Source of the DNA: Trypanosoma brucei
Lineage: Eukaryota
Assembly: GCA_000002445.1 (NCBI GenBank)
Contig: CP000070.1
Span: 832,001 to 896,000 of the forward strand
DNA: 64,000 nt
Direction: 5' to 3'
Shown: piece after piece, positions 172-41,065 of the stretch
Layout of the letters: each line of letters opens with the position of its first letter
How positions within the stretch are numbered: position 1 is the first letter of the stretch
The notes under the pieces: model-generated
What the model saw: only the letters and a program-made list of their open reading frames with translations
What the model was told of the DNA's origin: nothing
Databases searched by the model: none
Program-made: the position numbers and the translations under genes

Positions 172-2019
172 ATGGCCCAGACTGAAGTTGAGCAAATATG
201 CTCTGGTGAAGCCGAGCCGTACACCTCATACCTCTTCTCCCCTGTCGTGCGTGTAGTGGATCTCAGTGAGGGGCGAAGCTCTCCAACGCCGCCTGGCGGG
301 AATGAAGACCGAATGGCTCCTGACGGGGACCTTGAGATGAAGGATGGGTGTACCAGAGTGAGTTTTTCCCCAAATGGGGAATGCTACGTAGTAGGGACAA
401 GGAGAGGTTTCTTGTGGCTCTTCACGACAGGTTCGCCGCCGGGTCAAAATAATATCTATGGTTACGGTGATGAAAAAGGCGATGGGGTTTGCCTTGACGA
501 GGAGCCACCAGTGGAGCCCTTGAAACTTCAGGCGCACGGCGGTCCCGTTACAGACGTGACTTTTAACGACGTTGGCACACTCTTTGCTTCAGCGGGTGGG
601 GACGCTTGTGTGATACTGTGGAATCAGCGCACGAGGTTGAAAGTCCGTCGTATCAACACAGGTGGTGGTGTGCCCACCCTCGTCCGTTTTGTGCCTGAAA
701 ACAACAATTACCTTCTTGTTTCACTCATGCAGCACCGCCTTTTGCGGCTTTACAATACTTCAACAGGCCGCCCCGTAACGCGCAGAGGAGCCGAGATGCG
801 GATAGAAGCGTCCACTGTGGCAGTTCACTTCTGCGCCGACCCGTTCTTATTCATTGGTGACACAAGCGGAACCGTGAGCATGTGGCGGTACTACTTAGGG
901 TGTGAACACACATGCGCTATGTGCCCCCTTGAACCAAGGCGAAGTGGGGAATGGCGAGAGGGCCGCGCTTCTTCCCCAGCGGTCACAGGTCTTCTCCCGC
1001 ATGGAGTCGCCTCAGGTGCTTCCTCCACAAGGGGAAGCATAAAAGAAAGGTGTTGTCAGGTCCCTGCGGTAGTGGTGGAAAACCAGCCTTGCTTCGAAAA
1101 GGCGGGATCGCTTCTGCTGGAAAAGGGCACGCCGGTGGGAGCACTCGCGGTGAGCACCATGACCCAAGAGCAGCTGCGCTATCTGAAGCGAGCCCAGCGC
1201 ATTGGGTGGAAGATTCCCAAGCGAGGACTCTTCGGAAAGTTGATAGAGGGAATACTCTCTGAAGCGCTCAACCGTAACAACTCCAGCGAATCACCCGGAG
1301 AAATGGATGCCAGTGACTGCTCCAAGTTGATGTGCGCCGTGATGTTGCTCGCGTCGTTGCCGTGCGATCGGATGGCCGTTCTGTGCATTCAGGCGAAGGC
1401 AGAAGACACCCGCGAGTACACGTTGGTGCCCATGTTGGTGGTGGACCGTGCCTGCCGCATCCGGCACATGAGCACTGGGGCTGCGTTCTGCACCGACAAC
1501 GTGCGCTCCCCAACCTTCACATCCACGTGCGAGGAGGGTTTTGTTCAAATTATCGCCTGTACTGCTGCCCGCATGCTGCCGGTGGCAAAGGAAGAGACCG
1601 CGGCCACGGGCTCCTCCGCTGTGGTTACGCCGTGGGCTGTCATGGCGACACTTCCAGTCCCTTGCGGCGGCAGTCCCTCCAGCCTGGCTTGGTCGCCCGA
1701 CATGCGAATCCTTACAGCCGTGACTGAAGAAGGGATGGTTTATCAATGGCGTCGCGTCCAGCTGCACCAAGGCACTACGGTTAACGAAGACATCAATCGT
1801 GACGCCGATGATGGCCTTCGGGCTTCAACGACGAGGGATGAGGTGGATGAGTGGCGGAGGCACTTTGAGAGGGAGAAGAAACGGCAACTGCACCGCTACC
1901 GGGCGAGAAAGAATGCCGCCAACCAACTTGAGGACACATCTCGGCCATACGGCGGCCTGAATGCCGGGAGCGGGTCGCGAACAAGTGTCGTTCAAAGCCT
2001 TTGTCATGCAAGCAACTGA
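172..2019 (+). CDS. WD40-repeat protein (615 aa), function unknown
   Basis: ATG at 172-174 checked in sequence. WD-like blades ('GGPVTDVTFNDVGTLFASAGGDACVILWN', 'GTVSMWRY') with a charged coiled C-terminus. No specific family recognised. Confidence 0.7.
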   Translation: MAQTEVEQICSGEAEPYTSYLFSPVVRVVDLSEGRSSPTPPGGNEDRMAPDGDLEMKDGCTRVSFSPNGECYVVGTRRGFLWLFTTGSPPGQNNIYGYGDEKGDGVCLDEEPPVEPLKLQAHGGPVTDVTFNDVGTLFASAGGDACVILWNQRTRLKVRRINTGGGVPTLVRFVPENNNYLLVSLMQHRLLRLYNTSTGRPVTRRGAEMRIEASTVAVHFCADPFLFIGDTSGTVSMWRYYLGCEHTCAMCPLEPRRSGEWREGRASSPAVTGLLPHGVASGASSTRGSIKERCCQVPAVVVENQPCFEKAGSLLLEKGTPVGALAVSTMTQEQLRYLKRAQRIGWKIPKRGLFGKLIEGILSEALNRNNSSESPGEMDASDCSKLMCAVMLLASLPCDRMAVLCIQAKAEDTREYTLVPMLVVDRACRIRHMSTGAAFCTDNVRSPTFTSTCEEGFVQIIACTAARMLPVAKEETAATGSSAVVTPWAVMATLPVPCGGSPSSLAWSPDMRILTAVTEEGMVYQWRRVQLHQGTTVNEDINRDADDGLRASTTRDEVDEWRRHFEREKKRQLHRYRARKNAANQLEDTSRPYGGLNAGSGSRTSVVQSLCHASN

Positions 2020-2317: not shown

Positions 2318-2809
2318 ATGCTGCGCTCAACTCTGACCTCACTGAACACGTTTCTCACAAGCTCCGTCGCCACCCCACCGATATCTGTAATTAGAACGGG
2401 GCCGAAATGGTGGGCGGATCCCGAGCGCATGGTACGGCAGAAACTCATGTACTTCACGTTAGGGGTCGATCAGCTTCCACTGCGACGAACGGCGGTCATA
2501 CAGCGAGACCTGCAACGCTTCCATATGTGCAAACCGCCTCCCCGTGTTGGGGACTCAACGGGCTACAAACGCTCCCGGGCAGCTCAACTTAACACTTGGT
2601 ATCGCCGCATCCAGTACCAGGAGTATCACATGCAGCATCTCTTCACCAGGCATGTGTGGGGACTGTTGCGTGTGTACCCGGGGAACACTACGAAGATACA
2701 AGGCAAGGCAGATGATGGCTACGTGGGGTACGATTCGGTTCCGTTCCACCGATACAATCGGGCTCCTCTCCCGTTCCCCGCACGGGAACTTTACGAGCGG
2801 AGGAAATAG
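2318..2809 (+). CDS. Hypothetical small basic protein (163 aa), possible mitochondrial presequence
   Basis: ATG at 2318 checked. N-terminus 'MLRSTLTSLNTFLTSSVATPP' is R/S/T/L-rich. Same strand and spacing as the upstream gene and not overlapped by a better ORF. No motif recognised. Confidence 0.45.
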   Translation: MLRSTLTSLNTFLTSSVATPPISVIRTGPKWWADPERMVRQKLMYFTLGVDQLPLRRTAVIQRDLQRFHMCKPPPRVGDSTGYKRSRAAQLNTWYRRIQYQEYHMQHLFTRHVWGLLRVYPGNTTKIQGKADDGYVGYDSVPFHRYNRAPLPFPARELYERRK

Positions 2810-4328
2810 TCGAAAGGCATGTTGTATACGGAAGGACGGAGGGAGGGAGTTACAGTGGAAGAACGTCTTTTAAGAAGTGTGAACGTTTATCGCGCGTGCT
2901 TGGGGATGAGAGAAGTTCCTTGTGCATTGTCAATTTGTCTTGTACGTGGGGATGCTGCTGTCACACGCTCTTTTTCTCCACCTTCTAAGAAAGGAGTACC
3001 ACCGATAGGATTTTAGGATGAAGGAGTGCTGGAGGTGCCTAAACGAATTAAATAGCTTAGTAATATGAGGAAGGGAAGGAACACCTTAAATGTTCACGAA
3101 TCACCACCGGGGCACAAAGCCATAGCCGCTACCCACAAATCACGCTCAACGCGCCTCTAACGACAAAGCGAAGGGGTGCTGCAAACGGCTGGCGATAAGT
3201 GGAAATCACAACTACTATTGGGGCCGGCGTTGTGGGTTTTTTCAGTGTGCTTTCGCGTTGTGATGACAATGAGTTCCACTACCATTCACCAACCATCCAC
3301 AAAAGAGGGACGATACGCGGAGTCCCAAAATGAGGAGGACTAATGCGCGATCACTCTCCTCCTCGCGTTTTCGGAAGGGGCGAGGAAAAACTACTCTCAT
3401 AGACAGTTTTCAGCGCCGTCAAACCATGCCGGCGCAGCCGCGGAAACTTCCTAAGGTAACATCTTTCCTCTCCTCCTCCCCCATTTTCCAGAGCAGCCGT
3501 GCGCCTCCTCAGTGACGAGAAGAAAAAAACACCGTCAGACATGGGAACCTCTCTTGCCCAAAGACCGATGTAGATCTGTGACCTACGGCATGCCGTTTAC
3601 CTCCACCAAAAGTGACAAAATCACACCGTGAAATCCACTTTTTTTTTTTTCGACGGCGCTAAGCTACCCCCAGAAGCCAGCCGACCCGACTGACAGACAA
3701 CCACCAGCGAAACATGACCCCTCCTCTGCATCTTAGAAGTCACCTCCATTTCCAGTGCAATTCTTACCGTGCGAGAGAACGAAAGGAACTAGGACCACCA
3801 TTTGCAAAAATGGATCGCCCAAAGCACGAACAGCTTCGACCCAGCTTGCGGGTGGGTTAGGATAGTTGCAATTCCTTCTTTTGGACTATCATCTAAAGCG
3901 CACTAAAACAAAGATTCGGGGGAAGTGAAAACCCACGTCGTGACAGGTCGTTATTAACCTTAACTCTACAACTGTCGTTGCCTTAACCAGTAGGGTTAGT
4001 CCTGTCTCCTTTTATGGTTGGCATTATTCGCTTCTTCTTTTGTTGGGTAGCTAAATTTAAAAAAAAATCTCCGGAGTTTAGCGCAGTTGGTTATTACAGT
4101 TTTCCTTTACACCCCGCTCCATTTAATTCGATTTCCTAGTGTCCGGGTGTCGCCTGCCGAACGTGCATCTGTCCCTAGCTCTCCCCCCCCCCTCTCGCTG
4201 GAAACCTATGTTAGTCTCATCCCCTTATCCCCTCCCCCGAAATGTGTTTTTATTCTCTCTTTTTCCTTCCCCCTCCGTAATATTAATCAACAATACGAAG
4301 CAGGACGGTTTCGGCGGTAACATTCCCT
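2810..4328. promoter_or_regulatory. Convergent strand-switch region (likely RNA pol II transcription termination zone) between the + unit and the minus-strand array
   Basis: The + strand gene 3' end is at 2809 and the minus-strand gene 3' end at 4329. No ORF longer than ~65 aa, T13 tract at ~3640-3657, no tRNA-like T-loop or acceptor sequences found by eye. Confidence 0.5.
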
Positions 4329-5522
4329 TCAAAGCATTCGCAACAATAGAACTGCGGAACAAAGTGCAGCGGCACGAACACCCGAATGTGCTGCCGGATT
4401 GGACTCCGCTCTCATGACAGGTCTTCGCGCCGGTTCTGCAGAATAGTTGGATTTCAGTCGTACCTCCTCTTGTCCCCTTGAGGTGGATTCTTCGTTCACT
4501 CTCCTCGACAACTCCAAACTGTTCAGAATCTCCCCGATCAGTTCCTCGTGAAGCTGGTCATTAGTGAGTTCTGCCTCTTTGTGCCCTATGCATTTCGTCA
4601 ATTCATCCGCGGTAGTTTTTATTTTTTCCATAACCGCATTTTTTGCTTCTTCGAAACGCGCAAACAGGCGGATGACATCCCCAAATATACTCACTTTATT
4701 GGGATCTTCAGTCCACCGCACTGCACCGTAGGAAGTGACGTCACCGTACTCTCCCCCCTTTACATTTAGTTTGCCTTCCACACTTGATGCGAAATTCATC
4801 ACTCCACCACCCCACGTGAAGCTGTGACTCAATGACCCACCTTTTAATAAACCGTCTGTTGCCGTCCTCATCAAGTTGCAACCCCTGTCTTCATTTCGTT
4901 CAATGATGCTCTCCGCACCCAAGCTACTGAAGGAAATGGATGATAGCGCTTCGTGGAGTTGCAAGTTTTTCTCTGCCGACTTCGTTACATGTGAATCCTC
5001 GATTTTGTAAAGGGTTTCAGGTCCAATTGTTCCACGAAAACATTCTTGCAACTTGTCGTGCACCGCTGGCCTGCTCCCTCCCACGCTTATGCAAAACTGC
5101 GACGTCGTGCGTGCCGCCTGTGCAAATGCAAAAATCCACTCTTCCAGTCTTCCGGCTGCTAACCCAGCGGCGGCTGCTGCTAGCGCCGATGCATTCCTCA
5201 TTTCCTCTAACTCCTGCTGGAATGTAAACTCATTCTTCAATACTGTTTTCAAGAGTGTCCTGATGTCTTTACAATCTTTCTCACTAGAAGGTACGCTGTT
5301 TCGCATTACCGATAACTGCAACTGCGCGCTTTTGATCTTCAAATCTGACAGTTTCTTCATAACCGCAGCACTCCCGCTGTTTACTCTGTGTGCTACCCCT
5401 TTAAGATATGTCGATAACTCACACACTTTATTAGCGGCTGTCGCGTTTAGTGCATTCCTTTCATAATAATTTGCACGTGTTTCTTTTCCCAACAGCGCCA
5501 ACAGCACGAACCAAAACCTCAT
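4329..5522 (-). CDS. ESAG6: ESAG6-like transferrin-receptor subunit / VSG-fold surface protein (397 aa) with signal peptide and hydrophobic C-terminal tail (putative GPI signal)
   Basis: ATG at 5520-5522 checked. Signal peptide 'MRFWFVLLALLGKETRA', Ala-rich helices ('ALAAAAAGLAAGRLEEW'), N-glycosylation sites, 'FTWGGGV' motif. C-terminus '...AAALCSAVLLLRML' is hydrophobic. Size and signal peptide match my recollection of T. brucei ESAG6. Not searched. Confidence 0.7.
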   Translation of the reverse strand: MRFWFVLLALLGKETRANYYERNALNATAANKVCELSTYLKGVAHRVNSGSAAVMKKLSDLKIKSAQLQLSVMRNSVPSSEKDCKDIRTLLKTVLKNEFTFQQELEEMRNASALAAAAAGLAAGRLEEWIFAFAQAARTTSQFCISVGGSRPAVHDKLQECFRGTIGPETLYKIEDSHVTKSAEKNLQLHEALSSISFSSLGAESIIERNEDRGCNLMRTATDGLLKGGSLSHSFTWGGGVMNFASSVEGKLNVKGGEYGDVTSYGAVRWTEDPNKVSIFGDVIRLFARFEEAKNAVMEKIKTTADELTKCIGHKEAELTNDQLHEELIGEILNSLELSRRVNEESTSRGQEEVRLKSNYSAEPARRPVMRAESNPAAHSGVRAAALCSAVLLLRML

Positions 5523-5729
5523 TTTGTTCTCTTTATTTAATTATACTTGAGCTTTCACCTTCGTTACTGAGTAAAAACTAAATCACTCGTGCTATTCTTG
5601 ACACAGATTACCATTGTGGTGACAGTCCGGGAGAATACATTCTCAGTCCCATTTTGCTTTGTCCTACCAAACTCTCATTATAATAAACACCACTGCCTCA
5701 CACGCGTAGGTAGCAGCTACGTCCCCCCA

Positions 5730-5747
5730 ACACACACACACACACAC
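5730..5747. repeat. (CA)8 microsatellite upstream of the ESAG6-like gene; copy at ~8115-8133 is (CA)9
   Basis: 'cacacacacacacaca' read directly; length differs between the two duplication copies. Confidence 0.9.
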
Positions 5748-6160
5748 AACATTCCCCTCAATTGCTCACTTGAAAACAAATAGCAACAGTAATAACACAC
5801 ACACCGCAACAAATTGTACCTCAAATACTTGTTTCCTTCCCTACATCCGAACCATCTTATCCAGCCTCCACTCGACACAGTGTTTTGAAGGGAATAAAAA
5901 CCACTTCCAGGATATTGCTAACCAACAACCCTCCTTCTCGTTAATTAACGCCCTTTTCAACCGATTCTCTTTCGGTGTAGATGATACCGATCATCCCTTG
6001 CAGCTTCATACCACCCTACCCTTCATGGCAGCGCCTTGTCGCTTACTTCTAGCTCTGCGTCCGTGTATTATAACCAAGCGGTAGGTAAAACCAACAACCA
6101 CCAAAAAGATAAGAAAAATAATCCTCATTTAAAACCCCCAAAGTTGTACTTTCCTCAATA

Positions 6161-8374
6161 AACTAGGACCACCATTTGCAAAAATGGATCGCCCAAAGGA
6201 CGAACAGCTTCGACCCAGCTTGCGGGTGGGTTAGGATAGTTGCAATTCCTTCTTTTGGACTATCATCTAAAGCGTACTAAAACAAAGATTCGGGAGAAGT
6301 GAAAACCCACGTCGTGACAGGTCGTTATTAACCTTAACTCTACAACTGTCGTTGCCTTAACCAGTAGGGTTAGTCCTGTCTCCTTTTATGGTTGGCATTA
6401 TTCGCTTCTTCTTTTGTTGGGTAGCTAAATTTAAAAAAAAAATCTCCGGAGTTTAGCGCAGTTGGTTATTACAGTTTTCCTTTACACCCCGCTCCATTTA
6501 ATTCGATTTCCTAGTGTCCGGGTGTCGCCTGCCGAACGTGCATCTGTCCCTAGCTCTCCCCCCCCCTCTCGCTGGAAACCTATGTTAGTCTCATCCCCTT
6601 ATCCCCTCCCCCGAAATGTGTTTTTATTCTCTCTTTTTCCTTCCCCCTCCGTAACATTAATCAACAATACGAAGCAGGACGGTTTCGGCGGTAACATTCC
6701 CTTCAAAGCATTCGCAACAATAGAACTGCGGAACAAAGTGCAGCGGCACGAACACCCGAATGTGCTGCCGGATTGGACTCCGCTCTCATGACAGGTCTTC
6801 GCGCCGGTTCTGCAGAATAGTTGGATTTCAGTCGTACCTCCTGTCACTTTATTCCTAACCGCCCAAACCCCGCACTGAGGTCCCACTTCACAGCAACTCC
6901 AGATAGTTTTGTATCGCCTTGAATTGCCGTTCGTGAAGCTGGTCATTAGTGAGTTCTGCCTCTTTGTGCCCTATGCATTTCGTCAATTCATCCGCGGTAG
7001 TTTTTATTTTTTCCATAACCGCATTTTTTGCTTCTTCGAAACGCGCAAACAGGCGGATGACATCCCCAAATATACTCACTTTATTGGGATCTTCAGTCCA
7101 CCGCACTGCACCGTAGGAAGTGACGTCACCGTACTCTCCCCCCTTTACATTTAGTTTGCCTTCCACACTTGATGCGAAATTCATCACTCCACCACCCCAC
7201 GTGAAGCTGTGACTCAATGACCCACCTTTTAATAAACCGTCTGTTGCCGTCCTCATCAAGTTGCAACCCCTGTCTTCATTTCGTTCAATGATGCTCTCCG
7301 CACCCAAGCTACTGAAGGAAATGGATGATAGCGCTTCGTGGAGTTGCAAGTTTTTCTCTGCCGACTTCGTTACATGTGAATCCTCGATTTTGTAAAGGGT
7401 TTCAGGTCCAATTGTTCCACGAAAACATTCTTGCAACTTGTCGTGCACCGCTGGCCTGCTCCCTCCCACGCTTATGCAAAACTGCGACGTCGTGCGTGCC
7501 GCCTGTGCAAATGCAAAAATCCACTCTTCCAGTCTTCCGGCTGCTAACCCAGCGGCGGCTGCTGCTAGCGCCGATGCATTCCTCATTTCCTCTAACTCCT
7601 GCTGGAATGTAAACTCATTCTTCAATACTGTTTTCAAGAGTGTCCTGATGTCTTTACAATCTTTCTCACTAGAAGGTACGCTGTTTCGCATTACCGATAA
7701 CTGCAACTGCGCGCTTTTGATCTTCAAATCTGACAGTTTCTTCATAACCGCAGCACTCCCGCTGTTTACTCTGTGTGCTACCCCTTTAAGATATGTCGAT
7801 AACTCACACACTTTATTAGCGGCTGTCGCGTTTAGTGCATTCCTTTCATAATAATTTGCACGTGTTTCTTTTCCCAACAGCGCCAACAGCACGAACCAAA
7901 ACCTCATTTTGTTCTCTTTATTTAATTATACTTGAGCTTTCACCTTCGTTACTGAGTAAAAACTAAATCACTCGTGCTATTCTTGACACAGATTACCATT
8001 GTGGTGACAGTCCGGGAGAATACATTCTCAGTCCCATTTTGCTTTGTCCTACCAAACTCTCATTATAATAAACACCACTGCCTCACACGCGTAGGTAGCA
8101 GCTACGTCCCCCCAACACACACACACACACACAACATTCCCCTCAATTGCTCACTTGAAAACAAATAGCAACAGTAATAACACACACACCGCAACAAATT
8201 GTACCTCAAATACTTGTTTCCTTCCCTACATCCGAACCATCTTATCCAGCCTCCACTCGACACAGTGTTTTGAAGGGAATAAAAACCACTTCCAGGATAT
8301 TGCTAACCAACAACCCTCCTTCTCGTTAATTAACGCCCTTTTCAACCGATTCTCTTTCGGTGTAGATGATACCG
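6161..8374. repeat. Copy 2 of the 2.37-kb tandem duplication (ends at 'gatgataccg', then unique sequence) carrying an ESAG7-like gene
   Basis: Identity with 3787-5994 except for a 70-80 bp replaced cassette (6852-6935 vs 4469-4540) and a few flank SNPs or indels. Confidence 0.9.
6888..7907 (-). CDS. ESAG7: ESAG7-like transferrin-receptor subunit (339 aa), identical to the ESAG6-like copy over 330 aa but lacking the hydrophobic tail
   Basis: ATG at 7905-7907 checked. Identical to the 4329-5522 product until '...ELTNDQLHE', then 'RQFKAIQNYLELL*' with the stop inside the swapped cassette. The 339-aa size fits ESAG7. Confidence 0.7.
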   Translation of the reverse strand: MRFWFVLLALLGKETRANYYERNALNATAANKVCELSTYLKGVAHRVNSGSAAVMKKLSDLKIKSAQLQLSVMRNSVPSSEKDCKDIRTLLKTVLKNEFTFQQELEEMRNASALAAAAAGLAAGRLEEWIFAFAQAARTTSQFCISVGGSRPAVHDKLQECFRGTIGPETLYKIEDSHVTKSAEKNLQLHEALSSISFSSLGAESIIERNEDRGCNLMRTATDGLLKGGSLSHSFTWGGGVMNFASSVEGKLNVKGGEYGDVTSYGAVRWTEDPNKVSIFGDVIRLFARFEEAKNAVMEKIKTTADELTKCIGHKEAELTNDQLHERQFKAIQNYLELL

Positions 8375-9228
8375 CGACTACCGTTCGCCACAACTGTTGT
8401 GGTTGCTTCAAGTGGTGGTGAGCAAAGCGTTAAGGTATCACTACAATTTGAGGAGAACAAGAGGTCATCTTTTATTATACTGTGCGCTCCAACAGCGCTT
8501 CCTTGTACACAAATTATGTTTGCTAATTTCCTGTCCTTGAGGAGCTCCCTATTCCACAACGCGACACCAGTCTCAGTACAACTTTCCCTTCTTGAAGGTA
8601 CGTTTGCGATTGCGTCACGGGAACACGAAAGTAGCAACAACATTTTTTTTGCTTCACTCCTCCAGTGGACCTATTTGGTACTAATGCTTTTTGTTAACAC
8701 GTTGTCAAAAGGTTGCGGCATCCCATACCCCGAAGCACGCATCTGCATGATCCCCTAACCAACGGCGTACGAATAAGGCGATGCATTTGTTAACGCATGT
8801 TCGTTTGCATGTTTCCTCGCACTTCTGGGAGCGTGAGGTTGACGCGCCTCACCCGATCACTGCCGCACTATCAGCGCAGACGCAGTAACTCTAAAGGAGG
8901 AAGTGTGCCAACACATGTGTGAGGAAAGAATGGCAGTTCTTAAAGCTATGCCCCTAGTAGCTACAGTGGGGCCTCACACCTCCCGTGTGGTCAATGTTTT
9001 GTGCTTCGCTTCTGCAGTTGAATCACACTTGTCCAGTAAAAAAAAAACGGACGGAAGAAAGGAAGTAGATTGAGGACAGCACGGAGAGTGTAACAAAGAA
9101 ATTCCACAGACGTAGACACGCCTTCTTTTCAGCGCAAATCCCTCGGCAAGGGATTCCTACCTTCAGTGCATGCCCAACACAAACAATAACAAGTTACAAC
9201 ACCACCGGAAACAAAAAAAAACGTCCAC

Positions 9229-11652
9229 TCAACTCTCAACAAGAAAAACCATTTTTGCCTCAGGGGTATCTTGAATGCGAAAGTGTGCACGGTTCGCCTC
9301 AACCAATTTCAGCACTCCACCATAGTGTCGATTAGCCGCTTGCTGAACGCTAAGCGAAGCCCAGAGGAGCAGCTGCGAGGCCTCAACTCCTCGCGCCGGT
9401 ATCAAACTTCGCACCGCTTGCACGGCTTCCTCACGAGATAAAAAGTCGTTCTCTGCGAATTCCGCCTCCAAGTCGAGCGACTCACCAGAACATTCAGCTG
9501 AGACGTTAGCCTGGGAAGAGAGAGTAGAAATGGAAGGCGACCGCGCATCTCCAGACGTTCTCGGTGTAATGGGTGCCTCACCAAAAATATTGCCAGATCG
9601 CCCCCCACTAACTTTCTTCACTTTCCGCATTAAGAAAACTCCGGGCGACGTCTCTTTGCAAACGAAAAGATCAGGAAACAACTGCAAGACAGTGACGATA
9701 CGCGGTGGCAACACAGCCCGCATCGCAGGACTTGCGCACTGAAGGAAGAAGGCAGCTGTGCATGGTTCGTCATCGGGGGCCACATAGTGAAACACAACAG
9801 CCAAATCGCGCGGCGTTTGGTACGGATTCTCCTCACGGATGATGACACGTGTCGCCATATCGCCCGGTGCGGGTTCGGGCTCCTGTGAAGAAAGTGGGTC
9901 GGAGAGGTCTACGCGAGCAATGAAGTTCTCCCCAACACGAAATATGCGGGGATGACGATTCAGAATGTGCATCATCCCCTCAAAACCACCAACCATCACT
10001 TTCTCTTCTTCCGTAAGGCGAACATAGACATAGTGAGACCGATCCCACGTCGTGCATACGCGTCCCATGAGAATTATAAGACCTCGAACGTCTTCCGGAA
10101 ATTGCTCGAAGTCTTCAATGAAATGACCCTTCCAGCGGTCGCTGTTCGCCCCAATGCGCCTTCTCACAAGAGGCGTGTCCGTGTACCTTAGTTGAACTAC
10201 TTCGAATTGGGCAGGGTGATTCTTAACGCAGCCAATCAATTCGTTATGAGTTAAGTTTTTCTTTGTGTAGCGCTGCATCAGTAGGGACGAAGGAACAAAG
10301 TATCCGGGACAAACGCGCGAAACAAACTTCAGGATCGTCGCAAGCTGCTGAGACTCACCAGCCATGTTCGTAACTTCACCTTCCGCATTGAGAGGAATCA
10401 AACTATTGGCTTCCCCCTTTGCAATCTTGAGCTGTAACTGTTCGTGGGCTTCTTCGGGCGTTAGCCCATGCGCCTCAGGGTGCAACACTATGCTACGCCG
10501 GATCTCCGTCGTTCCTGCGATGCTACGGAGTTCAAAGTAGAAAGGCTGACGACGAAACCACTGCAACGTGGAGGAAATACGAATATGCTTCTTTTTTACC
10601 GCCGGTGGTAAGTTAAGGTTTCCAAAGTTTCCCCAGTTAACAGGAACGTACTTCAGGATTTCATACACATCTTCACGCGTGGGCACATTAGATGCAGCGG
10701 CCCAACCTCCATAGGCGTTCATGGAATTTGCGCCACGTGTTTGCGGCTGCGGTGACACGAAACGTGGAGGCTTTGACTCCCCAGCAAGTCGAGTGCAAAT
10801 GTACCTGTCGTGCAACACCCAGAATTCTCCCGCTGCGCGCGGCGTGCGGAGCAAACTAAGAAAGTCTCCGTACTTAACCGTATGGACAGTACCGCTGAGT
10901 TCACAAACTCGAGAGCCCTCCCGCAAGAGAAGGGAATAGGCTTCGCTGAGGGGTTTGTAATTAGGCTCATCCCTCTCACGCCGCCCAAGCACATCGTCGC
11001 GTAGGACGTCCAGGAGCTTTTCGGCGGCGCCCACCAGTCCCCTGTGCGTTCCTTCCGACGCATGCGACCCGATACGTTCGCCCGCTTCATTAACCGTCTC
11101 AGATTCGTCCTTATCGACATCAGCAAGGTAACTCTTCGGTTCGGCGGTAAGTTCCACATGACGAAGTCCATGAGCGTCCTCCACGAGCCGAAGGAGGAGG
11201 CATTTCTGCAACCATTCCTCGACACCCATTCCGCTGCCGAAGATATTGTCACGGCTTACTTTTGGCAGCTGCTCAACAAACACCTTAAGTCCTACACGAC
11301 CACTGGCATGCTGACGTGCAACTACCATTGCTGCAGCACGCTCCGCCACGGGGCGAGTATTAAAAATTGCAGTGAACTCATCTGGTGGAATTGCTTTAAA
11401 CCCGGGTTCTGAAAACGACAAAGCAAAGGGTTCATCACACCCTTCTGGTGAATCGGGTCCTGAGGATCGGAACCGCAGAGAAGCGAAGGGGCTGGCAGCG
11501 GGAATGTCACCGCGGGGTTTCCTCTTTCTTTCGTGAATAAGTTGGTGGTAGTGGACACGATTCTGGAGAATAAACTGCTGCCCTAGCAGCGAGCTGCCCC
11601 AAGGCAACGGTGTTGTGGAGAAAAGGAACTGAATTCGAAGGCGACGATGCAT
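9229..11652 (-). CDS. Conserved hypothetical protein (807 aa)
   Basis: The long ORF starts at TTG in the track. The first ATG is the next codon (11650-11652), checked as 'MHRRLRIQFLF'. No motif recognised. Confidence 0.65.
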   Translation of the reverse strand: MHRRLRIQFLFSTTPLPWGSSLLGQQFILQNRVHYHQLIHERKRKPRGDIPAASPFASLRFRSSGPDSPEGCDEPFALSFSEPGFKAIPPDEFTAIFNTRPVAERAAAMVVARQHASGRVGLKVFVEQLPKVSRDNIFGSGMGVEEWLQKCLLLRLVEDAHGLRHVELTAEPKSYLADVDKDESETVNEAGERIGSHASEGTHRGLVGAAEKLLDVLRDDVLGRRERDEPNYKPLSEAYSLLLREGSRVCELSGTVHTVKYGDFLSLLRTPRAAGEFWVLHDRYICTRLAGESKPPRFVSPQPQTRGANSMNAYGGWAAASNVPTREDVYEILKYVPVNWGNFGNLNLPPAVKKKHIRISSTLQWFRRQPFYFELRSIAGTTEIRRSIVLHPEAHGLTPEEAHEQLQLKIAKGEANSLIPLNAEGEVTNMAGESQQLATILKFVSRVCPGYFVPSSLLMQRYTKKNLTHNELIGCVKNHPAQFEVVQLRYTDTPLVRRRIGANSDRWKGHFIEDFEQFPEDVRGLIILMGRVCTTWDRSHYVYVRLTEEEKVMVGGFEGMMHILNRHPRIFRVGENFIARVDLSDPLSSQEPEPAPGDMATRVIIREENPYQTPRDLAVVFHYVAPDDEPCTAAFFLQCASPAMRAVLPPRIVTVLQLFPDLFVCKETSPGVFLMRKVKKVSGGRSGNIFGEAPITPRTSGDARSPSISTLSSQANVSAECSGESLDLEAEFAENDFLSREEAVQAVRSLIPARGVEASQLLLWASLSVQQAANRHYGGVLKLVEANRAHFRIQDTPEAKMVFLVES

Positions 11653-12382
11653 CAATGCACCGTGGTCGGATCCTCGCTATAGTTGCCGTACTCCAGAAGC
11701 AAGAGATTAAAGGATGGAGAAAAAGCCCTCTAAACTCCCTTTTAGTAATTACACATTCCACTAGGAACCAGTAGTTGTGACGTTTCAGAGAGTTGTTGTG
11801 AAGATCTCCTAATCACACTTGATCATGTTACCACAGTTAAACACTAGATACTAACGTAACGGAAAGCGAGAACTGGCAAAATAAAATGGAGAACGCTGAA
11901 CGAGAGGGACAGCCCCTGCTACAGACACGACCCTTACCCTCCTCAGCGCTCGGACCTACCGCAACCTCAGTTTCTCACCAAACATACACACACAGACACA
12001 CACAGCGGTGATCGATCCTGCAGTGGCCAGTGAGCATAATCGGACAACGCACGGGTACCGCTCTTGTGAAGGGTCGCGTCACATACGAAGCTCCCCATCT
12101 CCTCCTTGCTTATGGCCCCTTCGGCCACTACAATGGCGCCGGTGCGCGACCCTCTCCGTGAGCCTGTTTGCAGCAAAGATGTCGACAGCGAGCACAACAG
12201 TTCGTACAACACCGCACCCGCGGGGGGGGGGGAACGATAATGACAACAATCTCCACATGCATTCTCTTCATCGGTGGAATTCACAGCGAATCAATTCCTG
12301 CGATGTTAATAACGAATACACCCAAAAGTACTGCGTAATCAGTGCTGTTTTTGGCATACGGAACTGATGTTTACTTCAACCC

Positions 12383-26887: not shown

Positions 26888-29800
26888 TCAATGGTGCGCC
26901 CATGGCCCTCCCAAATGCGTTGTTGGGCAACCGGTTGCGTCGCCCTCGTCCTCATCGTCTTCACCTTCCTCAACAGAGCGCAAAAGCGATATCTCACGCA
27001 AAAGCTCCTTTGCACTCGTGGCAGAAACCTGACAACCACGAATGCGCGAGTCCAGATCCGTCATCAGTCCACCTATGTTGCGATTTAGCTCATCCACCAC
27101 ATCGTCGTGTTGTCTCCCTTTAGACTGTAATTCGACCATAAGTGCCTCTTTTTCACGCTTCAAACGCTCAAGCTGATGGCGCATCGAGCTAATGATATCT
27201 GTCCCACCCACGGCCAGATTGCTTGCAGACGGTACAGTCACCGCTGAGGTGGTGGAATTGCCAGTCTCTCCGAGATGCTCTGACGATGTCCAGGGGAGGG
27301 GAACGGGCATACCACCCTGTAGTTCCTCGATTCTGGCCTCCAGTTGTTGCATGACTGCCTCCACCTCACGCATCTCGTCGTCCTTAGCGTCTTGCAGGTC
27401 AAAGAGTTCCTGTTCACGGGCCTCCAGGGCCATCAACGCCGCCTTCTCCGCTGCTCGGGCTCCTTCAAGGACATTAACAAACTCATCGAGTTTACCAATG
27501 GTGTCAGTGTATTCAAACCCCTTCTCGTCCAACTCAAGCAACAGTGCAGCAATTTTTCTGTTAAGTGCATCAAGATCCTCTTTGTGAGTGATCTCCCGCT
27601 GTTCTAACTCTTCCCTCAGGGCAGCGTTCTCTTCGCTAAGTTTCTTAACCTCCTGTTCAAGTTCACCTACGAGATAAACGCCACTCATTAACTCTTCAAC
27701 CTTTCCACGGGCCACCTCCACGTGCGAACTTCGTGCCTTTTCAAGCATGTTGAACAGTGAGAGAAGCATCTCGTCACGGAACTTTTTGTCCCTATCTTGG
27801 GTGCAACGAAGTTCAAGTAACTCTTCCTCACGGGCAAAAAGCTCACTGCGCACCGTGCACTCAGCCTGACGAGCCTCATCCAATAGTACGACCATCTCCT
27901 CCATATTCTCCAGCATTTCGGTGTGTTCTGTGGCCCGCTCCTCAAGTTCGTCAAGTAAGTCACCTTCACGTTTCGCGCGAATACGGTCACGGTTGAGGAA
28001 CCCAACGACCAATAAGCACTGCAGCGAAGACAAAGAAGAGCGTTCAATAACCAAACGAGACAAGACCTCATCAACGAAAACACCCTGCTCATCAACCATG
28101 ACACCGCAGGCACGCCGCAAGAATGAAGACATCGTCAAATTGCCGCCACCAGCATCGTTAGTCCCAATACTACTGCCCAAAAGCAGCCGCTGCGTTTCCC
28201 TGAATGGGTAATGCTGAAGCCGTTGAGCAATTTCCGAAGGATGAATGCTTGAAGGATGGGTGACATCAAATTCAACCACACGACCACTCGGAGTGAACGT
28301 TACATTACTCACACAATCCCTGTAGACACGACATGCATTAGCAGCATCAACAACAACAGCACAACGTAACTCTTCCGGTTTATTCTTCAGCAACTCATCT
28401 AACCTCTCACCTTGAAGTTGAACACACTGAGAACTTACCATGCAATCTCCCTCCATCGAAGCCATCCACCGAGAATCATGTTTGCGCTCCTCCTCGCCGC
28501 CACGCGAAGGCTCATTCAACGCTTCCTCTAAGTCGTCCAGAGCGTTCGACATCAACACAGAAGGGCGATCATTGTGCGAAGAAGCGTCCACCACATCGAC
28601 ACCACTCCTCAGTTTTTTCAAAGCATCTACAGCTTTACGAAGCCCATCGCTCTGAGATACCAATTCATTGGTCTTGCGCTCATTCACAGCCTGCAGTTCC
28701 ATCACCTGCTCCTCCATATCACGAAGTCGTCTTTGTTGCTTGTCCAACTCATCTACCCTCAGTTCATCAGTGCCCCGCAATTGTTCATTCTGTGTCAGAA
28801 ATTCTTTCAGACGGTCACCAAGTTCCTGAAGTAGTTCGCCCTGAACAACAAGTTCATGAGATTTAATATCAAGTTCCTTCCGCAACTCGTCGTTTTCCGA
28901 AGATATCTCAGAGAGCTTCAGACGCAATTCCTTCACATCAGATAAAAGACATTCGATTTCTTTAGAATTTTCATCATCAACACTACGGAGATCGATATTT
29001 TCCCGCTTCACAAGAATCAACTCATTTTTGATAACACCAATACCATCACCGTCACCAGAAACATCCACATCAGCACTCTTCTCCTTCAAAAGATATTCAC
29101 CATCAGAATCAATTTTCATAGCACCGTCCTTCGCATCCCGAGAAACATCACGATCATCATTACGTAAAGAAAAAAGTTCGTTACTTCGTCTCAGTTCCTC
29201 ATTCTCAGTGCGTAGTTCAGCAAGTTGCTCCTCCATCTCATGAAGTTTCTCATTCTGCACATCAAGTTCACGTGCCTTGTCCCCTTCAGTATTGCGAAGC
29301 TCCTCATTCTCAGCGCGTAGTTCAGCAAGTTGCTCTTCCATCTCATGAAGTTTCTCATTCTGCACATCAAGTTCACGTGCCTTGTCACCATCAGTATTGC
29401 GAAGCTCCTCATTTTCAGCGCGTAGTTCAGCAAGTTGCTCCTCCATCTCATGAAGTTTCTCATTCTGCACATCAAGTTCACGTGCCTTGTCACCATCAGT
29501 ATTGCGAAGCTCCTCATTTTCAGCGCGTAGTTCGGCAAGTTGCTCCTCCATCTCATGAAGTTTCTCATTCTGCACATCAAGTTCACGTGCCTTGTCACCA
29601 TCAGTATTGCGAAGCTCCTCATTTTCAGCGCGTAGTTCAGCAAGTTGCTCCTCCATCTCATGAAGTTTCTCATTCTGCACATCAAGTTCACGTGCCTTGT
29701 CACCATCAGTATTGCGAAGCTCCTCATTTTCAGCGCGTAGTTCAGCAAGTTGCTCCTCCATCTCATGAAGTTTCTCATTCTGCACATCAAGTTCACGTGC

Positions 29801-32800
29801 CTTGTCACCATCAGTATTGCGAAGCTCCTCATTTTCAGCGCGTAGTTCGGCAAGTTGCTCCTCCATCTCATGAAGTTTCTCATTCTGCACATCAAGTTCA
29901 CGTGCCTTGTCACCATCAGTATTGCGAAGCTCCTCATTTTCAGCGCGTAGTTCAGCAAGTTGCTCCTCCATCTCATGAAGTTTCTCATTCTGCACATCAA
30001 GTTCACGTGCCTTGTCACCATCAGTATTGCGAAGCTCCTCATTTTCAGCGCGTAGTTCAGCAAGTTGCTCCTCCATCTCATGAAGTTTCTCATTCTGCAC
30101 ATCAAGTTCACGTGCCTTGTCACCATCAGTATTGCGAAGCTCCTCATTTTCAGCGCGTAGTTCAGCAAGTTGCTCCTCCATCTCATGAAGTTTCTCATTC
30201 TGCACATCAAGTTCACGTGCCTTGTCCCCTTCAGTATTGCGAAGCTCCTCATTTTCAGCGCGTAGTTCAGCAAGTTGCTCCTCCATCTCATGAAGTTTCT
30301 CATTCTGCACATCAAGTTCACGTGCCTTGTCACCATCAGTATTGCGAAGCTCCTCATTTTCAGCGCGTAGTTCAGCAAGTTGCTCCTCCATCTCATGAAG
30401 TTTCTCATTCTGCACATCAAGTTCACGTGCCTTGTCACCATCAGTATTGCGAAGCTCCTCATTTTCAGCGCGTAGTTCAGCAAGTTGCTCTTCCATCTCA
30501 TGAAGTTTCTCATTCTGTACATCAAGTTCACGTGCCTTGTCACCTTCAGTATTGCGAAGCTCCTCATTCTCAGCGCGTAGTTCAGCAAGTTGCTCCTCCA
30601 TCTCATGAAGTTTCTCATTCTGTACATCAAGTTCACGTGCCTTGTCACCATCAGTATTGCGAAGCTCCTCATTCTCAGCGCGTAGTTCAGCAAGTTGCTC
30701 CTCCATCTCATGAAGTTTCTCATTCTGCACATCAAGTTCACGTGCCTTGTCACCATCAGTATTGCGAAGCTCCTCATTTTCAGCGCGTAGTTCAGCAAGT
30801 TGCTCCTCCATCTCATGAAGTTTCTCATTCTGCACATCAAGTTCACGTGCCTTGTCACCATCAGTATTGCGAAGCTCCTCATTCTCAGCGCGTAGTTCAG
30901 CAAGTTGCTCCTCCATCTCATGAAGTTTCTCATTCTGCACATCAAGTTCACGTGCCTTGTCACCATCAGTATTGCGAAGCTCCTCATTCTCAGCGCGTAG
31001 TTCAGCAAGTTGCTCCTCCATCTCATGAAGTTTCTCATTCTGTACATCAAGTTCACGTGCCTTGTCACCATCAGTATTGCGAAGCTCCTCATTCTCAGCG
31101 CGTAGTTCAGCAAGTTGCTCTTCCATCTCATGAAGTTTCTCATTCTGCACATCAAGTTCACGTGCCTTGTCACCATCAGTATTGCGAAGCTCCTCATTCT
31201 CAGCGCGTAGTTCAGCAAGTTGCTCCTCCATCTCATGAAGTTTCTCGTTCTGCACATCAAGTTCACGTGCCTTGTCACCATCAGTATTGCGAAGCTCCTC
31301 ATTTTCAGCGCGTAGTTCAGCAAGTTGCTCCTCCATCTCATGAAGTTTCTCATTCTGCACATCAAGTTCACGTGCCTTGTCACCATCAGTATTGCGAAGC
31401 TCCTCATTCTCAGCGCGTAGTTCAGCAAGTTGCTCCTCCATCTCATGAAGTTTCTCATTCTGCACATCAAGTTCACGTGCCTTGTCCCCTTCAGTATTGC
31501 GAAGCTCCTCATTCTCAGTGCGTAGTCCATTTATCTTCTGTTCAAGTTCTTTTTGTAGGTAGAGAAGTTGCTGATTTCTTACTTCTAGTTCTCTTAATTT
31601 AGCGTGCTGCTCCTCTCGTATTCCTGTATTTTCGGTGCGCACTTCTCGGAGTTGTTCAACTAGTTCTTGGACTCTTCCTGATTGGACGCATAGATCGAGT
31701 GACTTTTCCACTTCGTGTTCGCGTAGCTGTTCGTTTTCTTTTTGTAGTTCGTTGGCATCTTGCTGTAGTTGTCGTAGTTGTGAATTTAGCTCCTCTATTT
31801 GATTTGTTTTACTGTTACAAATTTGCTGGAGATTGCTGTGAGATTCAGATAAAGTTCTCATCTGCCGATGTACATCCTGTATGTATTCGCTCTGCTTTTT
31901 TGCATCTACAGATATAATTTCATTATTTTTACAGAGTTCCTCATTTTCCCTAGCCAGAGTATTTAATTGGTTCTCTACAGCAGTTAGCCGCGCCTGTTGT
32001 GCAGCTAGTTCATTTGTTTTCTCCTCTTGTAATCGGAGAAGATCATCCCTCTCAGACGAAACATCATGCAGTTTTGCGCCAAGTTCACAGAGTTCTTGTT
32101 CTAGAGTATTCAGTTGTTGACGGCCTTCGTCGATTTGCTCCTTCAATAGATCTAGGCCATCCTTAGGTTCATTTAATTTCAACAGCAGCCGCTGCGTTTC
32201 CCTGAATGGGTAATGCTGAAGCCGTTGAGCAATTTCCGAAGGATGAATGCTTGAAGGATGGGTGACATCAAATTCAACCACACGACCACTCGGAGTGAAC
32301 GTTACATTACTCACACAATCCCTGTAGACACGACATGCATTAGCAGCATCAACAACAACAGCACAACGTAACTCTTCCGGTTTATTCTTCAGCAACTCAT
32401 CTAACCTCTCACCTTGAAGTTGAACACACTGAGAACTTACCATGCAATCTCCCTCCATCGAAGCCATCCACCGAGAATCATGTTTCCGCAGCTCATCATT
32501 TTCAGCACGAATCGCCTTCAGACTCTCTTGTAGCAAAGAAATTTTGGACTCAACGTTAGCAATCAGTTCATTAAGAGACTCAATTTCCTTTGCGTTATCA
32601 GATTCGGCAAGACGAAGTTGCTCATTTTCCTCCTTAAGTTGTTGCAAATGTCGCTCCACCTCGCACACATGTTTCTTGAGCAAATCAAGCTCACGGGCTT
32701 TTTCTTCTTCAGCACGGTGGAGCTCCTCGCTTTCTTTACTCAACTTTTTGATGTGTTGATCCTTTGCCGAACAGAGTTCATTTTGCGCATCAAGCTCAAT

Positions 32801-39892: not shown

Positions 39893-41065
39893 TGTAGGAA
39901 AGAGAACACGGAACACTAGCTAAAGCACCCAAAAGTACCTGGTCCCAAAACCCTGGTTGACACTTTGCTACTCTCCCCCTTCCCTCAATCGCTCTACTAC
40001 ACCTCGCTCACAAGTTCTACTGACTTCGCACTCAGCGGAGTTCGGATTCTTCCAAGACACGGCCAAATCCTCTCCTCCTCCTCCTCCTGTTTTTGCCCTT
40101 TTTTTTTCGTTCTATTACAAAAATTAAACAAAACTTTTGTCCTCCCCAACACTCACCCTCGCGGTGGCAAACACCAGTAGCAGTGGTGGTGTCGCCTCGT
40201 CACACTCGAAATGAACTACCGACTTGGGTGTGTTAACTCAGCCTTTCCACGGGGTTAGATCGCTCTTCAACTTTTCTGGCCCCTGTAGGTGCGGTTCTGA
40301 CCGTTCTTCGGGAATACTATAATGTACAACGATGCAAGCAGAGGAAACAGGAGAAATGAAATGATGGACACGACCCACTTGTAAAATCGACTAGTGCGTG
40401 GGTCTAAAGATAACACACAAATGCACAGTTATTTGTTTCTTACAAAGAAATCCGCACACTCAACGATACTTTTTCGACCTCTTCCTGCCGCTTGCAGTCT
40501 GACGCTCTTGCAACGATCCGCAAAAGCACAAGGCCAACACCAAACAGATACGATGCGATATGATATTATACGTATACCCACGTAATATCCAGAAAGTAGC
40601 GCATCTGCATCCTCCCCCCCCCCTCGTTGCAGCCACCTGTTTCTACGTGCGGGCACAATAAAGGAAGAAGGTCGCTTCCTTCTCACTATCAAGTGGAGGT
40701 CAAAGGAAAGACCACCCCTCTGGTCTGAGGCTTAAAATGAAAACAACGATGTGTCGGCAACTTCTGCAGTTCATTCAGGAGAATGGCACAACGTCGCATG
40801 TACGACCACCGTCGCCACCAGCAGCGGCACCGACAGAAGTTGATAGTTATAATTTTTTCCCCCTTTTAAAGTTCTGTACCGCGTAATCACCCGATGCCTC
40901 CTCCCTTCCTGTCGTTTGCTCGATGGGGAAGATAAATGTGAACGACAAATGTGGCAGTCACTTGTGAAGGGTCAAAATCAAAACATACCAATACACCACC
41001 AACTACGTCCTCAGCCTGACACCGCACCTTCCCACGCACGCACTCGCATGGGGCACCACACGCTC

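What the first reader, a model, noticed from the sequence alone, without database searches (positions are those of the whole stretch)
3787..8374. Tandem 2.37-kb duplication carrying ESAG6/ESAG7-like genes; coding sequence identical while flanks have drifted
The two units (3787-6160, 6161-8374) encode proteins identical over 330 residues. The non-coding flanks carry ~1% SNPs and homopolymer-length changes (C11 vs C9 near 4183/6558, A9 vs A10, CA8 vs CA9). So the coding identity is not simply because the copy is young. It implies ongoing gene conversion restricted to the ORF, or strong purifying selection on both copies. Bloodstream-expression-site ESAG6/7 pairs are usually noticeably diverged from each other. 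A chromosome-internal, almost identical pair is a useful reference, or reservoir, copy of the transferrin receptor.
Basis: partly seen in the sequence, partly recalled or inferred. Interest (0 to 1): 0.6.

Follow-up and report, generated by a model that had tools for sequence, protein, structure and literature searches.

The report
Known chromosome-7 ESAG7/ESAG6 gene pair
This is the already catalogued non-telomeric copy of the trypanosome transferrin-receptor gene pair (Tb927.7.3260/3250); the two copies are kept alike by block-wise recombination that also covers non-coding DNA, not by selection or conversion confined to the coding sequence.

Summary
The duplication is real. The window is Trypanosoma brucei brucei TREU927 chromosome 7. 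The two minus-strand ORFs are exact matches to XP_845948.1 (397 aa, ESAG6 type, 4329-5522) and XP_845949.1 (339 aa, ESAG7 type, 6888-7907). Jackson et al. 2013 already describe them as the single non-expression-site ESAG6/7 pair, at a strand-switch region.

The perfectly identical tract is 1,444 nt (4546-5989 = 6931-8374). It holds codons 1-326 plus 467 nt of non-coding 5' flank, including an identical (AC)9 microsatellite. All 6 differences (4 substitutions, 2 homopolymer indels) lie in the 3' flank. Between the two homology blocks sits a sharply bounded cassette (77 vs 88 nt, 48% identity). This cassette makes one subunit GPI-anchored and the other truncated.

A block model (p = 0.001) fits better than a coding/non-coding model (p = 0.03). 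The best explanation is intra-locus gene conversion limited by homology breaks. The shared head domain is mostly ESAG7-like and carries 38 residues seen in none of 37 expression-site copies, so a "reservoir" role is unsupported. Low novelty.

The parts
4329..5522 (-). ESAG6-type gene (397 aa; XP_845948.1; Tb927.7.3250): signal peptide, VSG A-type head, C-terminal hydrophobic GPI-signal tail
   Evidence: ORF. Exact match in NCBI on the 2,205,233-bp TREU927 contig. 6SOY_A E = 4.7e-180 over residues 1-396. PF00913. Mean Kyte-Doolittle hydropathy of the last 15 aa is 1.67, against 1.59 for BES1 ESAG6.
6888..7907 (-). ESAG7-type gene (339 aa; XP_845949.1; Tb927.7.3260): same head, short non-hydrophobic tail ...RQFKAIQNYLELL*
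   Evidence: ORF. Exact match in NCBI. The tail is homologous to expression-site ESAG7 tails ...EFEAIQKYLGSL*.
4546..5989 (-). Homology block A, unit 1: 1,444 nt, 100% identical to 6931-8374. Holds codons 1-326 and 467 nt of 5' flank with (AC)9 at 5730-5747.
   Evidence: blastn 100%, 0 gaps; MAFFT difference list; microsatellite.
6931..8374 (-). Homology block A, unit 2 (partner of 4546-5989); (AC)9 at 8115-8132
4469..4545 (-). ESAG6-specific cassette (77 nt; encodes ...ELIGEILNSLELSRRVNEESTSRGQ...)
   Evidence: 40 of 77 mismatches to the ESAG7 cassette. It is sharply bounded on both sides and occurs nowhere else in the window.
6843..6930 (-). ESAG7-specific cassette (88 nt; encodes RQFKAIQNYLELL then TGA). 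The 11 extra nt also put the downstream GPI-signal segment out of frame.
   Evidence: It occupies the same position (CDS nt 978 onward) as the nt 985-1068 lesion described for expression-site ESAG7 genes.
3787..4468 (-). Homology block B, unit 1: the last 140 nt of the ESAG6 CDS (4329-4468) plus 542 nt of 3' flank. 99.1% identical to 6161-6842.
   Evidence: blastn over 683 columns: 4 mismatches, 2 gaps. All 6 differences lie at or below 4281, downstream of the ESAG6 stop codon.
6161..6842 (-). Homology block B, unit 2. 6703-6842 is an untranslated, intact copy of the ESAG6 GPI-signal coding segment, lying 3' of the ESAG7 stop codon.
   Evidence: Residual GPI-signal coding sequence is known for all expression-site ESAG7 genes.
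5990..6160 (.). Single-copy 171-nt spacer between the two repeat units
   Evidence: No second copy in the window.
2810..4328 (.). Convergent strand-switch region. Plus-strand genes end at 2809. The minus-strand gene array (4329 to at least 63933) ends with ESAG7 then ESAG6.
   Evidence: ORF strands. WD40 domain in 172-2019(+). [quoted passage not shown] No tRNA and no Rfam family.

Best explanation
This is the known chromosome-internal ESAG7-ESAG6 tandem pair of T. b. brucei TREU927 (Tb927.7.3260/3250). The two genes are the last in a long minus-strand gene array that abuts a convergent strand-switch region.

Each ~2.2-kb repeat unit has the same parts: a 5' flank, a VSG-A-type head (codons 1-326), a subunit-defining cassette, the GPI-signal coding segment and a 3' flank. 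The cassette is 77 nt in ESAG6. In ESAG7 it is 88 nt and carries an in-frame TGA. The GPI-signal segment is translated only in ESAG6.

The ESAG6/ESAG7 split is old. The chr7 ESAG7 tail shares the derived AIQxYL..L-stop motif with expression-site ESAG7.

The rest of the two units is kept alike by intra-locus homologous recombination, most likely non-crossover gene conversion. This acts on whole homology blocks whose ends are set by the heterologous cassette and by the repeat edges.

The most recent event homogenised all of block A, both non-coding 5' flank and head, so block A has 0 differences in 1,444 nt. Block B was homogenised earlier or less often and has 6 differences in 682 nt.

Shown: the anatomy, the distribution of differences, the family membership and the identity of the locus. 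Inferred: the mechanism (conversion), its direction (the head is mostly ESAG7-like), and retention of the cassette by a heterology barrier and/or selection for one anchored plus one unanchored subunit. Transcription as the tail of a Pol II unit is inferred from gene order only.
For: - Exact protein matches on the TREU927 2.2-Mb contig.
- The literature names the pair and its strand-switch location.
- 1,444-nt perfect identity spans the ATG.
- An identical (AC)9 microsatellite lies in the 5' flank, while homopolymers in the 3' block differ.
- Block A vs block B: Fisher p = 0.0011 for all differences, 0.011 for substitutions only.
- The cassette is 48% identical with abrupt edges, at the same position as the ESAG7 lesion in expression sites.
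- The ESAG7 tail motif is shared with 17 expression-site ESAG7 proteins.
- By identity, the chr7 head lies outside both expression-site types: 78.1% to ESAG6 and 80.3% to ESAG7, while expression-site ESAG6 vs ESAG7 is 84.3%. The tails, by contrast, sort by type. This incongruence is what concerted evolution predicts.
- ESAG6/7 mosaics and conversion tracts of similar length in coding and non-coding DNA are documented in expression sites. One expression site has an ESAG7 head on an ESAG6 tail.
Against: - There are only 6 differences in total, so the tests have little power. With substitutions alone, the 5' flank vs 3' flank contrast is p = 0.13.
- Two of the differences are homopolymer-length changes and could be sequencing errors.
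- No second strain or long-read assembly could be examined, so neither the copy number nor the perfect identity is independently verified.
- No expression-site DNA was available, so synonymous divergence and the extent of expression-site-derived sequence could not be measured.
- The direction of conversion rests on 20 diagnostic positions: ESAG7-like 11, ESAG6-like 4, neither 5.
Confidence: 0.75

Rival explanations
1. One reading: gene conversion confined to the ORF, or strong purifying selection on both copies, keeps the coding sequence identical while neutral flanks drift.
For: There are no differences in the 977 shared coding nt, and 6 differences elsewhere (Fisher p = 0.034).
Against: - The 467-nt 5' flank, with its (AC)9 microsatellite, is also identical.
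- The 140-nt GPI-signal segment is identical although it is untranslated in the ESAG7 unit.
- Given 6 differences in non-coding DNA, the chance that all fall in the 3' flank is (542/1149)^6 = 0.011. Under the block model it is (542/682)^6 = 0.25. Both are my arithmetic on the counts.
- Selection cannot remove synonymous or 5'-flank changes.
- With substitutions only, the coding/non-coding contrast is not significant (p = 0.13).
Confidence: 0.07
2. A very young whole-unit duplication of a single gene, followed by import or rapid divergence of the short cassette. The clustering of the 6 differences in the 3' flank is chance or local hypermutability (homopolymers).
For: Overall identity outside the cassette is at least 99.1%. 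Two of the 6 differences are in homopolymer runs.
Against: - The cassette is 48% identical, so it is not young.
- The chr7 ESAG7 tail is no closer to the sampled expression-site ESAG7 tails (7 of 13 residues shared, my count) than the head is (about 80%), so it is not a recent import from a sampled expression site.
- 4 true substitutions in 542 nt against none in 1,584 nt gives (542/2126)^4 = 0.004.
Confidence: 0.1
3. Assembly artefact: either a false duplication, or a consensus collapse that erased real differences within the 1.4-kb block.
For: The identical block is longer than a Sanger read. No independent assembly could be retrieved. The 90% protein cluster holds only the two TREU927 proteins.
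Against: - The two units have distinct cassettes, a unique spacer, distinct outer flanks and 6 private differences. This is hard to produce by a false duplication.
- The pair is treated as two genes in the finished reference and in the literature.
Confidence: 0.05

Closest known systems
ESAG7/ESAG6 pairs of telomeric bloodstream expression sites (heterodimeric transferrin receptor; PDB 6SOY/6SOZ)
   Same: The same protein family: head about 78-80% identical. The gene order in the direction of transcription is ESAG7 then ESAG6. ESAG6 has a GPI-signal tail. ESAG7 has a truncated tail and a residual GPI-signal sequence in its 3' region. The six head cysteines and the N26/N110 sequons are conserved.
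   Different: The pair is chromosome-internal, at the end of a housekeeping gene array, and not promoter-proximal in a telomeric Pol I unit. Its heads are 100% identical, against 82-88% within expression-site pairs. It has 38 private residues. The ESAG6 tail is only 50% identical to expression-site ESAG6 tails. The sequon at about N234/235 is absent.
BES7 of Lister 427: ESAG7 head carrying an ESAG6 GPI tail (Hertz-Fowler 2008; eLife 2026, PMC13186567)
   Same: Shows that ESAG6 and ESAG7 exchange segments within a locus, with a break at the same C-terminal junction. The chr7 'ESAG6' likewise has a mostly ESAG7-like head on an ESAG6 tail.
   Different: In BES7 it was the tail (the C-terminal 120 aa) that was homogenised, giving two anchors. 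Here the head and 5' flank were homogenised and the anchor difference was kept.
T. congolense Fam15 GPI+/GPI- tandem pairs and T. brucei PAG genes (Fam14) (Jackson 2013)
   Same: Non-expression-site homologues of the transferrin receptor, arranged in tandem. The PAGs also sit beside convergent Pol II units.
   Different: These are far more divergent families. The chr7 pair is a bona fide ESAG6/7 by sequence. No procyclin locus is apparent in the window, but this was not specifically searched for. No direct comparison with PAG or Fam15 sequences was made here.
Concerted evolution of tandem duplicates by gene conversion (general)
   Same: The identity tract ignores the coding boundary, has abrupt ends at heterology, and different segments have discordant histories.
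   Different: Nothing unusual. This is a textbook-like instance with a small retained functional cassette.

Membership tests
ESAG6/ESAG7 transferrin-receptor family (Fam15) | VSG A-type N-terminal domain with high similarity to characterised ESAG6/ESAG7 | tested here: met
   6SOY_A E = 4.7e-180 and 6SOY_B E = 2.3e-166. PF00913 at 41 bits, above the 22.1-bit cut-off.
ESAG6/ESAG7 transferrin-receptor family (Fam15) | One subunit with a C-terminal GPI-addition signal, the other truncated without it | tested here: met
   397-aa protein with a hydrophobic tail (KD 1.67). 339-aa protein ending ...AIQNYLELL (KD -0.66). No dedicated GPI predictor was run.
ESAG6/ESAG7 transferrin-receptor family (Fam15) | Tandem arrangement, ESAG7 upstream of ESAG6 in the direction of transcription | tested here: met
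   ESAG7 at 6888-7907(-) lies upstream of ESAG6 at 4329-5522(-).
ESAG6/ESAG7 transferrin-receptor family (Fam15) | 'Expression-site-associated': located just downstream of a telomeric Pol I expression-site promoter | tested here: not met
   The pair is embedded in a chromosome-7 housekeeping gene array at a convergent strand-switch region. The presence of an expression-site-type promoter in 7908-9228 could not be tested, because no promoter sequence was available.
ESAG6/ESAG7 transferrin-receptor family (Fam15) | Subunit-specific differences in the head loops that together form the asymmetric transferrin-binding site | tested here: not met
   The heads are identical over residues 1-326. The 20 ESAG6/ESAG7-diagnostic positions (207-266) are the same in both chr7 subunits. 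The requirement for subunit-specific elements comes from the literature.
ESAG6/ESAG7 transferrin-receptor family (Fam15) | Binds host transferrin as a heterodimer | not testable with these tools
   Needs protein expression and binding assays.
Tandem duplicates under concerted evolution by gene conversion | Identity tract crosses coding/non-coding boundaries and ends abruptly at heterology | tested here: met
   Block A spans 467 nt of flank plus 977 nt of CDS. 7 of the 8 positions 4538-4545 differ, immediately next to the perfect tract.
Tandem duplicates under concerted evolution by gene conversion | Different segments of the repeat have discordant divergence or history | tested here: met
   0/1444 vs 6/682 (p = 0.0011). 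Cassette 48% identical. Heads group by locus and tails by subunit type.
Tandem duplicates under concerted evolution by gene conversion | Conversion events seen directly, or as differing tract ends among strains | not testable with these tools
   No other trypanosome assemblies could be reached.

The most novel reading that the evidence does not exclude
Both chr7 subunits carry the same, mostly ESAG7-like head and differ only in the anchor cassette. The locus therefore cannot by itself build the canonical asymmetric ESAG6/ESAG7 transferrin site. It might encode a pseudo-homodimeric receptor with altered or no transferrin binding, or with another ligand. Alternatively it might supply constitutively (Pol II) transcribed subunits that pair with expression-site-encoded partners, for example in stages whose active VSG site lacks ESAG6/7. 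A side effect would follow either way: many omics studies that report 'TfR' under Tb927.7.3250/3260 may be reading cross-mapped expression-site transcripts.
Probability: 0.12. Interest if true: 0.55.

Novelty: already known. Interest (0 to 1): 0.22.

Why it matters
The locus is annotated and has been described in print, so its existence adds nothing.

Three modest points are useful.
- The pattern of identity is a clean, small example of block-wise gene conversion stopped by a roughly 80-nt functional cassette. It should not be cited as evidence for selection on the ORF.
- The two subunits have identical, mostly ESAG7-like heads. This questions whether the pair is a functional stand-alone transferrin receptor or a good 'reference' for one.
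- These two gene IDs are the usual proxies for the transferrin receptor in TREU927-based transcriptomics and proteomics. Their divergence from expression-site copies (about 20% of head residues, 38 of them private) matters for read and peptide assignment.

Tried and rejected
- Exact-protein look-ups for independent assemblies found nothing on record. Copy number and identity could not be cross-checked.
- The structure paper (Trevor 2019) is not held. Transferrin-contact residues could not be mapped, so I relied on reviews for 'asymmetric site' and 'heterodimer only'.
- A literature search for Lister 427 and neighbouring-gene IDs gave 0 papers.
- tRNA and Rfam scans of the whole window were empty, so no RNA gene marks the strand-switch region.
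- blastn of the cassettes, the spacer and both outer flanks against the window found no other copies. There is no target-site-duplication-like signature of transposition.
- PAG identity was considered. It was rejected on the very high similarity to ESAG6/7 proper and on Jackson's classification, but was not tested against PAG sequences.
- Rooting with PAG or T. congolense outgroups was considered and not run. The diagnostic positions lie in hypervariable loops, where alignment to such distant sequences would not be reliable.
- An expression-site promoter upstream of ESAG7 was not tested, for lack of a reference sequence.
- The published expression data cannot separate chr7 from expression-site transcripts, so I drew no conclusion about expression.
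Full report
**What is there**

A self-comparison of the region shows two direct repeats, 3787-5989 and 6161-8374, separated by a single-copy 171-nt spacer at 5990-6160. Each repeat carries a minus-strand ORF: 4329-5522 (397 aa) and 6888-7907 (339 aa).

Both proteins match the solved T. brucei transferrin receptor. The 397-aa protein aligns end to end with ESAG6 (6SOY_A, E = 4.7e-180) and over residues 1-328 with ESAG7 (6SOY_B, E = 2.3e-166). Both carry the VSG A-type domain PF00913.

Both sequences are exact matches to NCBI proteins of T. b. brucei TREU927, XP_845948.1 and XP_845949.1, on a 2,205,233-bp contig.

Jackson et al. [quoted passage not shown] The window agrees with this. Every ORF of at least 200 aa from 4329 to 63933 is on the minus strand, while 172-2019 (WD40) and 2318-2809 are on the plus strand. 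ESAG7 then ESAG6 are therefore the last two genes of a long array that converges on 2810-4328. No tRNA or Rfam family lies in the window.

**Anatomy of the repeat**

A base-by-base alignment gives three segments.

- Block A, 4546-5989 = 6931-8374. It is 1,444 nt with zero differences. It contains the first 977 nt of the CDS (326 identical residues) and 467 nt of 5' flank, including an (AC)9 and an (AC)5 run that are identical in the two units.
- The cassette, 4469-4545 (77 nt) vs 6843-6930 (88 nt). It has 40 mismatches in 77 positions plus an 11-nt indel, with abrupt edges.
  - In ESAG6 the cassette reads through (…ELIGEILNSLELSRRVNEESTSRGQ…).
  - In ESAG7 it encodes RQFKAIQNYLELL followed by TGA.
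- Block B, 3787-4468 vs 6161-6842, is 99.1% identical.
  - It has 4 substitutions (3825, 3901, 3921, 4281) and 2 single-base homopolymer changes (A9/A10, C10/C9).
  - All six differences lie downstream of the ESAG6 stop codon.
  - The 140 nt that encode the ESAG6 GPI-signal tail (4329-4468) are identical in the ESAG7 unit (6703-6842). There they are untranslated and out of frame.
  - A residual GPI-signal sequence behind a frameshifting lesion at CDS nt 985-1068 has been reported for all expression-site ESAG7 genes (PMC13186567). The chr7 cassette starts at CDS nt 978, the same place.

Three observations contradict this.

- The 5' flank is as perfect as the ORF.
- The only strongly divergent segment lies inside the coding region.
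- An untranslated segment in the ESAG7 unit is also perfect.

The statistics point the same way. Block A vs block B gives Fisher p = 0.0011 for all differences and 0.011 for substitutions only. Coding vs the rest gives p = 0.034 and 0.13.

Given six differences, the chance that all fall in the 3' flank is 0.011 if they are spread over all non-coding DNA, and 0.25 if they are spread over block B. This is my arithmetic on the counts.

The counts are small, so this is a preference between models, not proof. Several details in the finding are also off:
- the identical protein prefix is 326 residues, not 330;
- the C run is C10 vs C9, not C11 vs C9;
- the CA repeat does not differ between the units.

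**History**

I aligned the chr7 pair with 20 ESAG6 and 17 ESAG7 proteins from expression sites.

- The chr7 ESAG7 tail (RQFKAIQNYLELL*) shares the derived AIQxYL..L-stop pattern with expression-site ESAG7 (EFEAIQKYLGSL*). The ESAG6/ESAG7 split therefore predates the separation of this locus from expression-site copies.
- The head tells another story. The chr7 head is 78.1% identical to expression-site ESAG6 and 80.3% to ESAG7. Expression-site ESAG6 vs ESAG7 is 84.3%, and copies within a type are about 92% identical.
- Heads therefore group by locus and tails by subunit type, which is the signature of concerted evolution.
- Five expression-site pairs, paired here by adjacent accession numbers, are 82-88% identical over the head. 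The chr7 pair is 100% identical.

Precedents exist. Expression-site ESAGs are mosaics, with conversion tracts of similar length in coding and non-coding DNA (PMC2567434). BES7 also carries an ESAG7 head joined to an ESAG6 tail.

**Most likely mechanism**

Intra-locus gene conversion homogenises whole homology blocks. The tracts end at the heterologous cassette and at the repeat edges. Block A is longer and was converted most recently. Block B was converted earlier or less often.

The cassette persists for one of two reasons, or both: heterology blocks heteroduplex extension, or loss of either subunit type is selected against. These steps are inferred.

The direction of conversion is uncertain. 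At the 20 positions that distinguish expression-site ESAG6 from ESAG7 (all within residues 207-266), the shared chr7 head is ESAG7-like at 11, ESAG6-like at 4 and neither at 5, and these states are interleaved.

**Functional reading**

Reviews state that only ESAG6/ESAG7 heterodimers bind transferrin, through subunit-specific elements at an asymmetric membrane-distal site. The chr7 subunits have no head differences at all. A dimer made only from this locus would be a pseudo-homodimer with one anchor.

The head keeps the six conserved cysteines and the N26/N110 sequons. It lacks the two extra ESAG7 cysteines and the loop sequon at about N234/235.

It carries 38 residues found in none of the 37 expression-site proteins, spread along the whole domain. 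That gives no sign that the locus donates sequence to expression sites, which agrees with Jackson's statement that internal copies do not recombine with ESAGs. The 'reservoir' idea is therefore unsupported. 'Reference copy' is true only in the trivial sense that omics papers use these IDs, and reads or peptides from expression-site copies probably cross-map to them.

**Limits**

- No other trypanosome genome or expression-site DNA could be reached with the tools.
- The following therefore remain untested: copy number, the perfect identity, synonymous divergence, the extent of expression-site-derived DNA, and the presence of an expression-site promoter in 7908-9228.

**Verdict**

This is a real feature, correctly recognised as ESAG6/7 and as chromosome-internal, but it is already known. 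The specific evolutionary inference (ORF-restricted identity) does not hold. The data fit ordinary block-wise gene conversion in a tandem duplicate with a retained functional cassette.

Noticed in passing
window 26888-39916 (-), repeats 29196-31526 and 33861-37329: A giant ORF (4,342 aa by the mechanical ORF call) holds two arrays of a 105-nt (35-aa) tandem repeat. One array has about 22 copies at 98% match and the other about 33 copies at 96% match. Long mirror ORFs appear on the opposite strand as a by-product.
   Followed up: no
window 6703-6842 (-): The ESAG7 3' untranslated region contains an intact, 100% identical copy of the ESAG6 GPI-signal coding segment. It is silenced only by the upstream 88-nt cassette (stop codon plus an 11-nt length difference). 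Replacing that cassette would turn ESAG7 into a second anchored subunit, as seen naturally in BES7.
   Followed up: partly
chr7 ESAG6/7 residues 230-250 (window about 4770-4835 and 7155-7220): The head lacks the loop N-glycosylation sequon present in BES1 ESAG6 (N235, N250) and ESAG7 (N234). It also lacks the two ESAG7-specific cysteines (C230, C247).
   Followed up: partly
protein cluster of XP_845948.1 / XP_845949.1: The 90%-identity cluster holds only the two TREU927 proteins. No orthologue from T. b. gambiense or another subspecies appeared among hits with E <= 1e-20. The locus may be strain-specific, collapsed in other assemblies, or simply absent from the database.
   Followed up: no
chr7 ESAG6 tail, window 4329-4545: The ESAG6 C-terminal tail is only 50% identical to expression-site ESAG6 tails, against 78% for the head. 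Expression-site tails are 89% identical to one another. The tail has diverged much faster than the head, or the head exchanged with expression sites more recently.
   Followed up: no
window 9229-11655 (-) and 2318-2809 (+): The immediate neighbours of the pair (808 aa and 163 aa) have no Pfam domain at E <= 0.01. The start codons listed for several minus-strand genes are bacterial-style TTG/GTG calls and probably overextend the true ORFs.
   Followed up: no
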